Origin: Callorhinchus milii
Taxonomy: Eukaryota
Assembly: GCF_018977255.1 (NCBI RefSeq)
Contig: NW_024704747.1
Location: 930,001 to 994,000, forward strand
Direction: 5' to 3'
Length of the DNA stretch: 64,000 nt
A program made the position numbers. This document shows positions 1-48,000 of this stretch, piece by piece (the first letter of the stretch is position 1; each line of letters starts with the position of its first letter).

Positions 1-3000
1 AAATTTAAATATAAACACTTCCCCCCCGCCCCACACTCAGAAAAGGGTGACTGGGCGCTATTCTGCGCAATACAAAACGCTTGCTTTCATTCAGTTAAAA
101 TTAAAGGGAGGCAAAAAAAAGCAAATGCTCGCGACCACGGCATTGTTCCCCTTCACGAGGGCGGAAGTGGAATGTGACAGCCTCACTCAGTCATCCTCCA
201 CAACAATCTCTGGAATCCTGAATTAAAATCTAATACTCTTCACCTTCTTCATCCTCGCCCTCAACGCTGTCTGCTCCGACCTCCTCATAGTCCTTTTCCA
301 AGGCCGCCATGTCCTCACGAGCCTCGGAGAACTCCCCCTCCTCCATCCCCTCCCCCACGTACCAGTGCACAAAGGCACGCTTGGCATACATTAGATCAAA
401 CTTGTGGTCAAGCCGAGCCCAGGCTTCAGCTATGGCTGTGGTGTTGCTCAGCATACACACTGCACGCTGCACCTTGGCCAGGTCACCACCGGGCACCACA
501 GTGGGAGGCTGGTAGTTGATGCCAACCTTGAACCCAGTTGGGCACCAGTCCACAAATTGAATGGAACGTTTGGTTTTGATGGTGGCAATAGCGGCATTGA
601 CATCTTTTGGCACTACGTCACCTCGGTAGAGCAGGCAACATGCCATGTACTTGCCATGACGAGGGTCACACTTGACCATCTGGTTGGCTGGCTCAAAGCA
701 GGAGTTGGTGATCTCAGACACAGACAGCTGCTCATGGTAAGCTTTCTCAGCCGAGATCACAGGGGCATAAGTGGCGAGAGGGAAGTGGATACGTGGGTAT
801 GGCACTAAATTGGTCTGGAACTCGGTCAGATCTACATTCAGAGCACCGTCAAAGCGAAGAGAAACTGTAATAGAAGATACAATCTGTGCAATTAATCGGT
901 TTAGGTTAGTGTAAGATGGACGATCAATGTCCAGGTTTCTACGACAGATATCGTAGATGGCTTCATTATCTACCATGAAGGCACAGTCTGAGTGCTCGAG
1001 GGTGGTGTGTGTGGTGAGGATGGAGTTGTAGGGTTCCACCACCGCTGTGGAGATCTGAGGAGCAGGGTAGATGGCAAATTCAAGCTTGGATTTCTTGCCG
1101 TAGTCAACAGAGAGACGCTCCATCAGCAGGGAAGTGAAGCCGGAGCCAGTGCCTCCCCCGAAGCTGTGGAAGATGAGGAAACCCTGGAGTCCAGTGCACT
1201 GGTCCGCCTACAGCAATGAAGGGGGAAGTACCTTGTTTAGTGTAGTTTTTCTTGATCATGTGTTCTGCTTTCGGGTGGACGTTATCTACCAGCCTGTTCT
1301 GCCAGTTTATTGGATCCCAACAGGTCACTGAATCCTATTTCCTCACCTCCTCTCCATATCCCTTGATCTCCTCACTTTCCAAGTGTCTCTCTCCCTTTTA
1401 AAAACTAAATTAATTCTATCTTCACACCTTTCTGGAGCAGTGAGCTCCACAGTTGGACCACCCTCTCTCTATATGAAATAATGTTCCTTTTCCAATGAAA
1501 GTGAATAGAATTGGTTTCCTTTAGACAGCATTGTCCCATGAAGTTCGTTTGTGAACTTGACACTAATTTATTTCAATGCGGCCATGGTTTGGGAAAAAAA
1601 CATTCCACCAATAAATGTGCNTTTTTTTTCTGATCAAAGTCAATTGGTAAAAAAACAATGTACTGTGTACGTCTGGAAACCCAACTGGCTATCTCACGAA
1701 CATACTCAACGTCAATACAGCTGAGAGATAAGTGAATGTTCCAAATTAAATCCTAATTTTTGCCAAATTTACCTGTTACATGGTGTTGAAACCACCCCAT
1801 CCGCACTCTTGATGTTCTTCTTTTGCTCCACAAAAAGACCCAGAAAATACCTAGCGTTTTAATTTGCGAATTGAAATGGGCCTTTGCAAGGACAACACAG
1901 TCCTGAGATACAATTGAAAAAACAGTCCAATTTTCCACCTCAAGACCACTTTCACTCTTTCCTCCATTTTGTGCAACATTTAAGATGATCAAAATGGCGA
2001 AAAAAATTATTACAATTCAGCCTCAACCTGTATTGGCAACCACAAACCACATGACAGACTATTTTATATCTTAAAAGTCACAATGCAGTCACGATGCAAT
2101 GAGTTTTGATTGCTGCCGTACATGCACTTTAAGCAAGGTTAGTTAAGACTGGAGTTACGATATTTGAAAGCGTTGCCAGTCAAATGTCCCAATAATTAGT
2201 TTCAAACATGCGTTAGTAGACCGTGAGCTAAGTGTTGAGCTATTTAGCTAGACAGGGCACGTCCTTGTAAATAACATACAAGAACGTTATTCAGCCGTGA
2301 CAGTGGGGGAAGTACAAAAAAGTAAATATTTCCCTCAGAATGTAAAATCCTAAACATAAGCACCAAGGTATAGCAAGGCCTAGCTCAGTCTCTGATATGA
2401 AACATTTTCACGAAAGAATCCACCGAACTCCTAGACTGGTTGACTGAGAATTTAATGGTAAGTTATCTATCATAAAATCCTGACCTTGAAATGCATCAAA
2501 GCAATAGTTATTTTGGAATGCTGTGTGCAGTTCCAGTCACCGCAATATAAAAAGGATATTGCAGCCATTGAGAGGATTCAGAGGAGGGCAACCAAAACGA
2601 TTCAGGGGATGGACGGACTGGACTACGAAGAGCGATTAGATAAGCAGGACATGTTCACACTGGAGAAGAGGGTTAAGGGGCAATATGATTACGGTCTTCT
2701 GGAGGGACCAGATAATGTAGACCATGATAAGCTGTTTTATCTTGTACTGAATTGTAGAACTAGAGGACATGGCCTGCGATTGAAGGGGGAGGTAAATTAA
2801 GAAAATGTCTGTGGAGATCTACTAGATTCTGTTATCTACATGCGCGGTCAGTCCAGTGGCAGAAACAGGGTACTGGGACACTGATATAGATCTCAGAACA
2901 GACACTCTCTCTCTGCTGTATTATCCAGGTGATATTGCAATGCTCTACACCTTCATACCAGCTCATGCAGGGCAGAGACACCCATACAGGGGTGAGGGCG

Positions 3001-45000: not shown

Positions 45001-48000
45001 TTTGATTGTTACTTACATGGTTAAGGGCCGTTGTAATTCCCTCCGTGCACATGGTTTACACCTGACGCATAATGCGGTGTGGTACGGAAGCCCAAGGTAA
45101 CCTTTCCTCTGTCGTCTCTCTCTCTCTCCAGCGTGAATGTATCTCTATCCATGTTGGCCAAGCCGGTGTCCAGATGGGCAATGCCTGCTGGGAGCTGTAC
45201 TGCCTGGAACATGGCATCCAGCCTGACGGGCAGATGATCAAGGGTCAAAAAGTGAAGACCATCGGGATATCGGACGACTCCTTCACCACGTTCTTCAGTG
45301 AGACGGGATCTGGGAAGCACGTGCCCAGAGCCGTCCTTGTGGACCTGGAGCCCACAGTGATCGGTCAGTACAGTACAGAGAGCTCACTGGCTCACATGTC
45401 CTTCATCTGCCATTGGTTGGTTATGGTCAGTCGCCGCTGGAGGAGGCTATTTGGCCCATTGTGTCTGTATCACTGCCCCCTGCATCGTCGTAGTTTATTA
45501 TTAATCACACTTTCCAGCTCTCTCCCCATGTCTTACCACCACCCTCCCTGCCCTCTTGCGTTCCATTAAATGTTAAGAAAGGGCAGCCAAATTGTTTGTA
45601 TCGATAGCTCAATGGACTCTGGCCTGCTCCATGTCCCCCAACCTAGCCTGCCCGCTTCACCATCAGTAGTCGGGCCTTTGGCCTCTCTTCACCACCTTTG
45701 GAACTCCATCCCAGAGCCCCTTTGCTTGCCCCCTCCCTTGCCTCATTCAAGGCCCGTCTCAAGACCCTATTCGACTGTGCTTTCAGTCACCCTCCAACCC
45801 CTACCCTCCTGCCCTCCATTCCTCTTGATACCAAACCCCAGATTGGGTCCAAATCCCTGAATGTCCAGCTCCTTGGACGTTCCTCCCGTGATTGAAATGT
45901 AATTTGCTGCTGTTGTTGTCCCTTCATAATATACTGGGCCTGTTTGTCTAATAGTAATGCACGCATTTGACATAGCGCCTTATCAAGTCGTTGAGACGGC
46001 TCAAAGTGCTTCACCAAACAAGGCAAGGAGGAGAATTTCAGAAGGTTGACCAAATGCATATAGTCAGAGAGGGGGTTTTGAGAGAAGAGAGAGAGAGAGA
46101 GTGCAGAGGGGTTTTGGGAGAACGGATCGGAGAGCAGGGCAGAGCAGTTGAAGGTTGACTACTCGAATGCAGCAAACACAGAACCCTGGAATGTAACCTC
46201 TGCTGGGTCTAACTTCCAGATGAGATCCGTACTGGTATCTATCGCCAGCTGTTCCACCCCGAGCAGCTCATCAGTGGCAAGGAAGATGCTGCCAATAACT
46301 ACGCCCGTGGGCACTACACCATTGGCAAGGAGATCATTGATTCTGTCCTAGACAGGATCCGCAAGCTGGTAAGCCATTCCTCCTGCACGACTCGCAATGA
46401 CATCCAGATCTGCGGGTTTTGACTTTGACTAATGCCAATGCCTGTTTGTGGTCTCTTCTGTAGGCGGACCAGTGCACTGGGCTCCAGGGTTTCCTTGTCT
46501 TCCACAGCTTCGGGGGAGGCACTGGCTCCGGCTTCACTTCCCTGCTGATGGAGCGTCTCTCTGTTGACTTTGGCAAGAAATCGAAGCTGGAGTTCTCCAT
46601 CTACCCTGCTCCTCAGGTCTCCACAGCGGTGGTGGAACCCTACAACTCCATCCTCACCACCCACACCACCCTCGAGCACTCAGACTGTGCCTTCATGGTA
46701 GATAATGAAGCCATCTATGATATCTGTCGTAGAAATCTGGACATTGAACGTCCAACTTACACTAACCTAAATAGACTCATTAGCCAGATTGTCTCCTCTA
46801 TTACAGCATCCCTTCGCTTTGACGGTGCTCTGAATGTAGATCTGACCGAGTTCCAGACCAATTTAGTGCCATACCCACGTATCCACTTCCCTCTCGCCAC
46901 CTATGCCCCTGTGATCTCGGCTGAGAAAGCTTACCATGAGCAGCTGTCTGTGGCTGAGATCACCAACTCCTGCTTTGAGCCAGCCAACCAGATGGTCAAG
47001 TGTGACCCTCGTCATGGCAAGTACATGGCATGTTGCCTGCTCTACCGAGGTGACGTAGTGCCAAAAGACGTCAACTGTGCTATTGCTGCCATCAAAACCA
47101 AACGTTCCATTCAGTTTGTGGACTGGTGCCCAACTGGGTTCAAGGTTGGCATCAACTACCAGCCTCCCACTGTGGTGCCCGGTGGTGACCTGGCCAAGGT
47201 GCAGCGTGCAGTGTGTATGCTGAGCAACACCACAGCCATAGCTGAAGCCTGGGCTCGGCTTGACCACAAGTTTGATCTAATGTATGCCAAGCGTGCCTTT
47301 GTGCACTGGTACGTGGGGGAGGGGATGGAGGAGGGGGAGTTCTCCGAGGCTCGTGAGGACATGGCGGCCTTGGAAAAGGACTATGAGGAGGTGGGTATCG
47401 ACTCTTTTGAGGGTGATGAAGAGGGAGATGAAGAATATTAATAGGATTCTGACCTAATTCACGAATGAGGTTTCATAAAGTTAGGCTCTGTTTTGTTTTT
47501 AGAACTGATAAGAGTTGAATGAAAGTTGGGCTAAGGTAACGGGCGACTGAGAAAGTCCTATTTTCTATCTTATTTATTAAAACATATTTTGAGCCCAATT
47601 TTGGTGTTTATTCGTTTTATAATAATCCTGAGGTAAAGAGACTTTGTGAGCGAGTTCCGCTCTCTCTCTCTCTCTCGGTCTGTCTGTCTGGATATGTGTA
47701 TATTCCACTATCTCTGTCCGTGTTTTTCTCTCTGTATGCGTGGGACTGTCTCATGCTCTTTTTGTATGTGCGTGTCTCTCTCTATTTGTGCGTGTGTGTA
47801 CACATCCCTCGCTATTTCTCTCTCTCTCTCCTTGTGTATGCATTTCTCTCTTTGTACGTCTACGTGTTTAGAATCTCCATCTTTCCCGTGAGACGTTAAC
47901 CAAGGTCCCACCTGCCTTTCAAGGTGGACGTTAAAGATCCCATGTTGCTGTTCGAAAAGAGGAAGGGGTTTCTCTCCCGGCGTCTTGGCCAACAATTCCC

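What the first reader, a model, noticed from the sequence alone, without database searches (positions are those of the whole stretch)
230..47441. Five-gene alpha-tubulin array: homogenised bodies with hypervariable tubulin-code segments
Seen: exon 4 of genes A, C, D and the inverted gene E is nearly identical at the nucleotide level. Even the antisense shadow [15 protein letters not shown]...GGW is identical at 309, 15260, 29389 and 47156, while UTRs and most intron sequence are unrelated. Identity ends abruptly at the codons after EEVG, and each gene has its own tail. The K40 loop differs strongly in B and E. Inference: ongoing interlocus gene conversion keeps a common structural body while the PTM-bearing segments (acetylation loop, glutamylation/tyrosination tail) escape, giving a cassette-like repertoire of isotypes.
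Basis: partly seen in the sequence, partly recalled or inferred. Interest (0 to 1): 0.75.

Follow-up and report, generated by a model that had tools for sequence, protein, structure and literature searches.

The report
Alpha-tubulin gene array with patchy conversion
Five neighbouring alpha-tubulin genes of a non-human vertebrate keep parts of their coding exons almost identical by copying sequence from one another, while the tail of each gene stays distinct and one gene also keeps its own acetylation loop and middle exon; this is a clean but not surprising case of a known process.

Summary
The window holds exactly five intact alpha-tubulin genes: A to D on the minus strand and E inverted. Their right-hand neighbour is an STK16-like kinase gene.

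In the exon-4 core (933 nt), A, C, D and E are 95.6-97.7% identical (dS 0.07-0.15). B is only 82-83% identical to them (dS 0.8-0.9). A 278-nt block is letter-identical in all four genes, which explains the identical antisense ORF. The block ends within three bases of the tail codons.

Identity also starts exactly at the exon-4 acceptor. Introns and UTRs are unalignable, except for 275 nt shared by A and C.

Gene E is a mosaic:
- Exon 2, nt 1-105: 0 of 105 differences from C.
- From the first K40-loop codon through exon 3: about 20% divergent (dS up to about 1).
- Exon-4 core: 95.6-96.6% identical to A, C and D.
- Tail: its own.

E also carries residues typical of an old fish and frog isotype class with IDS[FC]E tails.

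The best explanation is patchy interlocus gene conversion confined to exonic homology blocks. Whether selection or plain sequence mismatch protects the tail and loop is not resolved. This is a new member of a known kind. DNA comparison with orthologues and a check against raw reads were not possible.

The parts
230..4308 (-). Gene A, coding exons 2-4: exon 4 230-1207, exon 3 3358-3506, exon 2 4086-4308. Tail [14 protein letters not shown] at 230-274 (includes the stop). The 3' UTR is cut by the window start. A candidate exon-1 ATG|GT at 5204 in a CpG island is tentative.
   Evidence: (AG/GT at every junction)
7443..12757 (-). Gene B, the divergent isotype: exon 4 7443-8411, exon 3 11597-11745, exon 2 12535-12757. 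It has W in place of K40 and a short, poorly acidic tail, [11 protein letters not shown] (7443-7478). A candidate ATG|GTAAGT at 13437 is tentative.
   Evidence: dN/dS about 0.08 in exon 4; best listed identity 88%
7710..7907 (-). Exon-4 positions 505-702 of B: a dip in synonymous divergence from A/C/D/E. It includes a run with 0 differences from C and D at positions 568-632 (7780-7844). Possibly an older conversion tract involving B.
   Evidence: run p=2e-4; Sd/S 8/43 versus 100/174; region chosen post hoc
15184..18825 (-). Gene C: exon 4 15184-16158, exon 3 18077-18225, exon 2 18603-18825. Tail [13 protein letters not shown] at 15184-15225. A candidate exon-1 ATG at 27833 in a CpG island 9 kb upstream is tentative.
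29304..31729 (-). Gene D: exon 4 29304-30287, exon 3 30515-30663, exon 2 31507-31729. Tail [16 protein letters not shown] at 29304-29354. A candidate ATG|GTGAGT at 32690 is tentative.
45132..47441 (+). Gene E, inverted: exon 2 45132-45363 (232 nt, with 9 extra nt in the K40 loop), exon 3 46220-46368, exon 4 46464-47441. Tail [14 protein letters not shown] at 47397-47441. Exon 1 was not found.
45132..45236 (+). E exon 2 nt 1-105: identical to gene C (18721-18825) and 2 differences from D. Read as a converted tract that ends at the first K40-loop codon (codon 37).
   Evidence: 0/105 versus 27/117 downstream; Fisher p 2e-9; run test p 2e-4
45237..46368 (+). The unconverted middle of E: K40 loop (45237-45272), the rest of exon 2, intron 2 and exon 3. 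It is 77-84% identical to A/C/D, with exon-3 dS of 0.78-1.08.
279..556 (-). The 278-nt block (exon-4 positions 652-929) that is identical in A, C, D and E, shown here in gene A. It contains the antisense ORF at 309-515.
15230..15507 (-). The same identical block in gene C (antisense ORF 15260-15466).
29359..29636 (-). The same identical block in gene D (antisense ORF 29389-29595).
47115..47392 (+). The same identical block in gene E (antisense ORF 47362-47156 on the minus strand).
3005..3279 (-). The only low-copy non-coding homology between genes: a stretch of A intron 3 that is 89% identical over 275 nt to C intron 3 (17734-17988).
   Evidence: 2 copies in the window
61841..62122 (-). An exon of an STK16-like kinase gene, convergent with gene E. 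It serves as a synteny marker for the locus.
   Evidence: Pkinase, below the cut-off; best PDB match 2buj, serine/threonine-protein kinase 16, E 1e-28

Best explanation
This is a tandem array of five functional-looking alpha-tubulin genes next to an STK16-like gene. The genes are old duplicates: their introns and UTRs no longer align, and gene E belongs to an isotype class shared with ray-finned fishes and a frog.

Repeated non-reciprocal copying between the genes (interlocus gene conversion) has overwritten patches of the exons:
- Most of exon 4 in A, C, D and E, with a very recent layer covering its last 278 nt before the tail.
- The first 105 nt of exon 2 in E, copied to or from C.
- Exons 2-3 among A, C and D, to varying degrees.
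- Possibly about 200 nt of exon 4 in B.

Tracts stop where homology stops: at intron borders, at the insertion-bearing K40 loop of E, and at the indel-rich tail codons. As a result the tails of all genes, and codons 37-125 of E, keep separate histories.

Shown: the mosaic pattern, its statistics, the boundaries, and E's class markers.

Inferred: the copying mechanism, its recency, and the idea that purifying selection on isotype-specific residues and tails helps keep those segments apart.
For: 1. Divergence differs sharply between segments of the same gene pair. For E versus C the differences are 0/105 (exon 2 5' part), 27/117 (exon 2 3' part), 28/147 (exon 3), 39/651 (exon 4 positions 1-651) and 0/278 (positions 652-929). 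Fisher p is 2e-9 and 4e-15. For E versus A/C/D, dS is 0.78-1.08 in exon 3 and 0.11-0.15 in exon 4.
2. Variable sites are clustered. The 278-nt invariant run was reached in 0 of 20,000 permutations. Pairwise run tests give p of 2e-4 to 4e-3 for 8 of 10 pairs (0.024 for B-E and 0.07 for A-C).
3. Informative sites conflict: AC|DE 11, AE|CD 5, AD|CE 1, out of 17.
4. There is no regional nucleotide constraint. B differs at 40/278 in the block and 16/105 in the exon-2 tract.
5. Identity starts at the exon-4 acceptor AG and ends at EEVG, and the flanks are unalignable.
6. The shared tail peptide DSVEGE is coded with 4 synonymous differences between A/C and D, right after 278 identical bases.
7. E carries rare residues that are enriched in named proteins with IDS[FC]E tails: FTTFF 8/10 versus 25/243, LISGK 7/10 versus 28/246, IDSVLD 6/10 versus 8/225, VDFGKK 6/7 versus 4/214. 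E's lineage is therefore old, although its exon-4 core looks young.
8. GC3 in the block is 0.71 in A/C/E (0.70 in D) versus 0.59 in B. This is weakly in line with GC-biased conversion.
9. Precedents. Concerted evolution of TUBG1/TUBG2 (PMC2720389, passage read). [quoted passage not shown]' (title seen in reference lists only). The 'peak of divergence' under conversion plus selection (PMC3924837, passage read).
Against: - No orthologous DNA could be compared. The classic criterion, paralogues closer than orthologues at silent sites, is untested.
- No raw reads were available, so the zero-difference block cannot be checked against assembly polishing.
- The A-C pair alone is not significant in the exon-4 run test (p 0.07). 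Together with its 89% intron stretch, it could simply be a younger duplicate.
- The B tract region was chosen after seeing the data.
- The class assignment of E rests on a non-random sample of 270 named proteins returned by three searches. Two of the ten IDS[FC]E proteins are not fish (a frog and a nematode).
- The GC3 difference is small.
- Selection versus heterology as the cause of the tract ends is unresolved.
Confidence: 0.78

Rival explanations
1. Selective shielding. Conversion would spread everywhere, but events that overwrite the PTM-bearing tail, the K40 loop or isotype-specific residues are removed by purifying selection. The boundaries would then mark functional modules of the tubulin code.
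For: - All recent tracts end within 3 nt of the tail.
- The E tract ends at the first loop codon.
- E keeps class-typical residues (VDFGKK, AIAAIK) inside an exon-4 core that is otherwise homogenised.
- 3 of 8 E-unique synonymous sites lie in a codon next to a replacement codon (permutation p 0.007). This fits the 'peak of divergence' model.
Against: - The same boundaries are also where indels and dense mismatches begin, and these alone can stop heteroduplex formation.
- Identity stops just as sharply at intron borders, where no PTM is at stake.
- In E the unconverted stretch runs on through ordinary, conserved exon-3 codons.
- Adjacent differences could be dinucleotide or CpG-decay events.
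- A, C and D share their K40 loop.
Confidence: 0.35
2. Recent tandem duplication without conversion. On this view A, C, D and E are simply young copies, and their introns changed quickly through repeat insertion.
For: - A and C share 275 nt of intron at 89% and nearly the same tail start.
- Introns are full of interspersed repeats.
Against: - A young copy cannot be 0/105 and 0/278 in two segments and about 20% divergent, with dS near 1, in between.
- Site patterns conflict.
- Intron ends next to the exons do not align even where no repeat sits.
- E carries markers of an old isotype class.
Confidence: 0.05
3. Nucleotide-level constraint. On this view the identical block is held constant by codon bias, mRNA structure, or a functional antisense transcript or ORF.
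For: - The 68-aa antisense ORF is intact and identical in four genes.
- GC3 is higher in the block.
Against: - B, an intact gene under purifying selection, differs at 40/278 in the block, 26 of these at third positions. The segment therefore tolerates silent change.
- The antisense ORF follows automatically from identical DNA.
- Rfam finds nothing there.
Confidence: 0.04
4. Assembly or polishing artefact. On this view reads from several paralogues were mixed during consensus calling, which erased true differences in the most similar stretch.
For: Zero differences over 278 nt in four copies is what mis-mapped short-read polishing can produce. No reads could be inspected.
Against: - An artefact does not explain the contrast between E's exons, the shared derived sites, or the clean ends at the intron borders and the tail.
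- The rest of exon 4 keeps 21-41 differences per pair.
Confidence: 0.08

Closest known systems
Concerted evolution of vertebrate tubulin paralogues. Examples: TUBG1/TUBG2 in mammals (PMC2720389) and chicken beta-tubulin genes (Sullivan, Lau and Cleveland 1985; title seen only).
   Same: Linked tubulin paralogues whose coding regions are kept alike by gene conversion, while other parts differ.
   Different: This case involves alpha-tubulin, at least four genes including an inverted one, several layers of tracts, and clear ends at the tail and at one K40 loop. I did not read the 1985 paper, so a detailed comparison is not possible.
'Peak of divergence' under conversion plus selection. Examples: red and green opsins and protocadherin clusters, as reviewed in PMC3924837.
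   Same: Low divergence over most of the gene, with sharp islands of high divergence at functionally distinct sites.
   Different: Here the islands also carry indels, so heterology alone could explain them. No population or cross-species data were available to show selection.
Tubulin gene arrays of trypanosomatids (PMC1533823 and PMC1621084; search listings and abstracts only).
   Same: Tandem tubulin genes homogenised in their coding regions.
   Different: Those arrays hold many near-identical copies for dosage. This array keeps distinct isotypes, with different tails, loops, introns and probably promoters.
Isotype-defining C-terminal variable regions of vertebrate tubulins (Sullivan and Cleveland 1986; title seen in a reference list).
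   Same: Genes differ mainly in the last ~15 residues. E's tail is close to the tails of fish proteins.
   Different: The present point concerns the DNA history: core converted, tail not. It is not only about protein variability.

Membership tests
alpha-tubulin | Tubulin GTPase domain and Tubulin C-terminal domain | tested here: met
   Pfam PF00091 and PF03953 are above the cut-off in 5 of 5 exon-4 translations. PF00091 also matches E exon 2.
alpha-tubulin | Closest relatives are alpha (not beta or gamma) chains | tested here: met
   The named hits at the top are 'tubulin alpha'. All 60 PDB matches shown are alpha chains, with alpha-4A first (729 bits versus 727).
alpha-tubulin | Vertebrate alpha-tubulin gene structure: Met alone in exon 1, then exons of 223, 149 and about 980 nt (structure recalled from memory) | tested here: inconclusive
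   Exons 2-4 have these sizes with AG/GT borders in 5 of 5 genes; E exon 2 is 232 nt. Exon 1 is only a candidate in A-D and was not found in E. No RNA data.
interlocus gene conversion / concerted evolution | Significant clustering of identical stretches between paralogues (GENECONV-type test) | tested here: met
   permutation and Fisher tests.
interlocus gene conversion / concerted evolution | Conflicting phylogenetic signal along the gene | tested here: met
   Site patterns are 11, 5 and 1 for the three groupings. Exons 2, 3 and 4 rank B and E differently.
interlocus gene conversion / concerted evolution | [quoted passage not shown] | not testable with these tools
   No eukaryotic DNA collection was on hand. 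Only protein-level class markers for E could be examined.
interlocus gene conversion / concerted evolution | Flanking non-coding DNA much more diverged than the converted part | tested here: met
   The only low-copy non-coding match is A-C intron 3, at 89%.
TUBA4A-type locus (orthology of gene E) | Neighbourhood with STK16 (the human arrangement is recalled, not checked) | tested here: inconclusive
   An STK16-like exon lies 14 kb from E on the opposite strand. The human gene order is from memory. A literature search for TUBA4A, STK16 and synteny gave nothing usable.
IDS[FC]E-tail alpha-tubulin class of fishes and frog | Tail beginning IDSFE or IDSCE, plus the residues FTTFF, LISGK, IDSVLD and VDFGKK | tested here: met
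   E has all of these. They are enriched in the 10 named proteins with such tails, compared with 260 others. The closest tail is [13 protein letters not shown].

The most novel reading that the evidence does not exclude
The array works as a modular system. A conversion flux keeps the lattice-forming core of several alpha-tubulin isotypes identical within the species. Selection specifically shields the two code-bearing segments, the K40 loop and the C-terminal tail, together with a handful of isotype residues. Isotypes would then differ almost only in what the modifying enzymes read. If this holds generally, it would explain why tubulin trees cluster by species while tails cluster by isotype. 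It would also make the functional units of the tubulin code readable directly from conversion boundaries.
Probability: 0.25. Interest if true: 0.6.

Novelty: new member of a known kind. Interest (0 to 1): 0.38.

Why it matters
It gives a compact natural example in which the DNA history of a tubulin gene separates the conserved core from the segments that carry post-translational modifications.

Conversion boundaries could be used as a map of which residues an isotype cannot afford to lose. This would require selection to be separated from simple loss of homology.

It is also a warning for tubulin phylogenies and isotype naming. Here exon 4 would place gene E with its neighbours, whereas exons 2-3 and the tail place it in an old, separate class.

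Gene B has no K40, a short weakly acidic tail, and no relative above 88% identity in the search made. E's lengthened K40 loop is also unusual. Both are candidates for isotypes with unusual modification states.

Tried and rejected
- B exon 4: best identity 88% among the 120 proteins listed, out of 8000 scored. No close relative.
- E exon 2 against longer proteins: best identity 84% among 120 listed, out of 5615 candidates. No protein has E's loop.
- E tail region: no identical tail.
- None of the searches returned the window's own proteins, and the species was not identified.
- Scans of the 293 named proteins found 0 exact tails and no E- or B-type loop. The 53 unnamed proteins were left out of these scans.

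**Other checks that gave nothing**
- Rfam over the whole window gave only four tRNA-like matches, which are heads of an interspersed repeat.
- The ORF at 62407-62706, which I guessed to be the first STK16 exon, has no support from Pfam or PDB.
- The exon-1 search gave plausible ATG|GT sites in CpG islands for A, B and C, and a weaker one for D. It gave nothing convincing for E.
- The paper PMC366973 is not held.
- No paper on alpha-tubulin gene conversion in vertebrates turned up in the literature searches. This holds for the held library only.

**Readings rejected**
- cDNA-mediated conversion, because the introns are retained.
- A single unequal crossover, because two converted segments flank an unconverted one in an inverted gene.

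**Not run**
- Structure and complex prediction were not run, because no claim here depends on them.

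
Full report
**What is there**

The window is repeat-rich vertebrate DNA with two single N positions (1621 and 35824), which were left untouched. I do not take it for human. It holds five alpha-tubulin genes in 47 kb. All five tails are absent from the 293 named proteins I scanned. It is also dense with a tRNA-headed interspersed repeat. The species was not identified.

tblastn with each exon peptide of gene D finds exactly five copies of exons 2, 3 and 4 and no extra fragments. 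All 15 exons have AG/GT borders and open frames. All five exon-4 translations match Pfam Tubulin and Tubulin_C. Exon 1, which from memory carries only the start codon in vertebrate alpha-tubulin genes, could only be proposed for A to D and not for E.

An exon at 61841-62122(-) has the PDB entry for serine/threonine kinase 16 as its best match (E 1e-28). From memory, STK16 lies beside TUBA4A in human. I could not check that here.

The spliced proteins were never assembled. Every search and statistic was done exon by exon, so look-ups that need a full-length protein were left out.

**The observation**

In the 933 nt of exon 4 up to the EEVG codons, genes A, C, D and E differ at 21-41 sites per pair (95.6-97.7% identity, dS 0.073-0.148). 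B differs from each of them at 155-165 sites (dS 0.82-0.93).

The 56 sites that vary among A, C, D and E all lie at positions 1-651, apart from positions 930 and 933. Positions 652-929 are identical in all four genes. It is a by-product of identical DNA.

B differs at 40 of the 278 block positions, 26 of them third codon positions. The stretch is therefore not frozen by any general constraint. An invariant run of this length was reached in none of 20,000 permutations, whether all sites or only third positions were shuffled.

Identity begins exactly at the exon-4 acceptor and the intron sequence before it does not align. At the other end, the third bases of the V and G codons of EEVG already differ. 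The next 27 nt hold 9-13 differences between A/C, D and E. The shared peptide DSVEGE is even spelled with four silent differences between A/C and D.

A and C are an exception. Their tails share the first 21 nt and a few UTR bases.

**Gene E is a mosaic**

This is the most telling result. Differences from C by segment:

| Segment of E | Differences from C |
|---|---|
| Exon 2, nt 1-105 | 0 of 105 (2 of 105 from D) |
| Exon 2, from the first K40-loop codon (codon 37) to the exon end | 27 of 117 |
| Exon 3 | 28 of 147 |
| Exon 4, positions 1-651 | 39 of 651 |
| Exon 4, positions 652-929 | 0 of 278 |

The contrasts give Fisher p values of 2e-9 and 4e-15. dS between E and A/C/D is 0.78-1.08 in exon 3 and 0.11-0.15 in exon 4.

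C and E share the derived base at exon-2 position 16 (Ile instead of Val) against A, B and D. B differs at 16 of the same 105 exon-2 positions.

Intron ends beside exons 2 and 3 do not align, apart from some 15-20 nt between C and D.

**Other signs of exchange**

- Among A, C, D and E, the 17 two-by-two informative sites of exon 4 support three incompatible groupings: AC|DE 11, AE|CD 5 and AD|CE 1. Each grouping is clustered in its own stretch.
- Run tests are significant for most pairs, for example C-D over positions 505-929 (p 4e-4). A-C is not significant (p 0.07).
- B shows a dip in silent divergence at exon-4 positions 505-702 (Sd/S 8/43 against 100/174 elsewhere). This includes 65 nt without any difference from C and D. 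I chose that region after seeing the data, so I treat it as a possible older tract only.
- In exon 3, B is closer to A and D (dS about 0.4) than E is.
- GC3 in the identical block is 0.71 in A, C and E and 0.70 in D, against 0.59 in B. This weakly fits GC-biased conversion.

**Age of the copies**

The only low-copy non-coding similarity between genes is 275 nt of intron 3 shared by A and C at 89%. Everything else shared is interspersed repeat.

I could not compare orthologous DNA. A protein-level substitute came from the search results. E differs from A=C=D at 13 residues. Several of E's residues at these positions are rare in general but common in the 10 named proteins whose tails begin IDSFE or IDSCE. 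These 10 proteins come from teleosts, a sturgeon, a frog and one nematode.

| E residue motif | In IDS[FC]E-tail proteins | In other named proteins |
|---|---|---|
| FTTFF | 8/10 | 25/243 |
| LISGK | 7/10 | 28/246 |
| IDSVLD | 6/10 | 8/225 |
| VDFGKK | 6/7 | 4/214 |
| AIAAIK | 4/7 | 26/229 |

The tail nearest to E's is [13 protein letters not shown], found in cod, trevally and trout proteins. Those proteins also have unusual K40 loops.

E therefore belongs to an old isotype class. This cannot be squared with a young-looking exon-4 core unless the core was overwritten. The sample is what three searches happened to return, so this is supporting evidence rather than proof.

**Mechanism**

The best reading is patchy interlocus gene conversion between old linked paralogues, including the inverted one. 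Tracts are confined to blocks of exonic homology. They end at introns, at the 9-nt insertion and dense changes of E's K40 loop, and at the indel-rich tail.

At least two layers exist in exon 4: an older one (dS about 0.1-0.15) and a very recent one (the 278-nt block).

I rejected cDNA-templated copying because the introns are retained. I rejected a single unequal crossover because two converted parts flank an unconverted one.

It is plausible but unproven.
- For it: E keeps class-typical residues inside the homogenised core. Also, 3 of 8 E-unique silent changes sit in a codon next to a replacement codon (p 0.007). This is the 'peak of divergence' pattern described for opsins (PMC3924837, passage read).
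- Against it: the boundaries coincide with heterology that could stop heteroduplex by itself. Identity stops just as sharply at introns. E's unconverted part includes ordinary exon-3 codons. The adjacent changes may be dinucleotide events.

**What is known**

Gene conversion among tubulin paralogues is documented.
- Mammalian TUBG1/TUBG2: PMC2720389, passage read.
- Chicken beta-tubulins: a 1985 paper of which I saw only the title in two reference lists. The paper itself is not held.
- Trypanosomatid arrays: search listings and abstracts only.

Six searches of the held library for alpha-tubulin conversion in vertebrates found no such report. Subscription journals are mostly missing from that library.

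I rate the finding a new member of a known kind.

**What stays open**

- Comparison with orthologous DNA.
- Raw reads to exclude polishing artefacts in the zero-difference block.
- Exon 1 and expression.
- The species.
- The cause of the tract ends.

Noticed in passing
7443-12757 (-), gene B: A divergent but intact alpha-tubulin under purifying selection (dN/dS about 0.08 in exon 4). It has Trp in place of K40 and a short, weakly acidic tail, [11 protein letters not shown]. No protein above 88% identity appeared among the 120 listed for its exon 4. None of the 293 named proteins scanned has its loop or tail.
   Followed up: partly
45237-45272 (+), gene E K40 loop: The loop is three residues longer than in A to D and carries extra lysines (…[14 protein letters not shown]…). 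The fish proteins that share E's tail type also have odd, mutually different K40 loops. This suggests an isotype class with a variable loop.
   Followed up: partly
15184-15225 (-), gene C tail: The tail contains a cysteine codon in the acidic run (…EGECEEEEY).
   Followed up: no
whole window, e.g. 5666-6216, 30784-31155, 36012-36295, 52306-52673; tRNA-like heads at 30791-30863, 49635-49693, 54544-54615, 62977-63048: A tRNA-headed interspersed repeat (SINE-like) is present in roughly 30 or more copies in 64 kb at about 70-87% identity. It fills the introns and spacers of the array. Rfam calls four of the heads tRNA.
   Followed up: partly
9480-9838, 28390-28716, 43184-43574, 57314-57691: A second repeat family, 84-93% identical between copies, whose reading frame spells …APRLWNSIP…. 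It lies in B's intron 3, downstream of D and upstream of E.
   Followed up: no
10004-10825 (-), inside intron 3 of gene B: A fragment of a LINE-type endonuclease (Pfam Exo_endo_phos and Exo_endo_phos_2, near the cut-offs).
   Followed up: partly
4401-5800, 12701-13800, 27101-28500, 62801-63900: CpG islands. The first three hold candidate ATG|GT first exons for genes A, B and C. For C this would mean a 9-kb first intron, with its promoter only about 1.5 kb (ATG to stop codon) beyond the end of gene D. The last island lies at the STK16-like gene's 5' end.
   Followed up: partly
61841-62122 (-): An exon of an STK16-like kinase, convergent with gene E. A possible first exon at 62407-62706 found no support in Pfam or PDB.
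   Followed up: partly
33919-34554: A CA/TG-rich simple-repeat stretch, which reads as runs of His-Thr in one frame.
   Followed up: no
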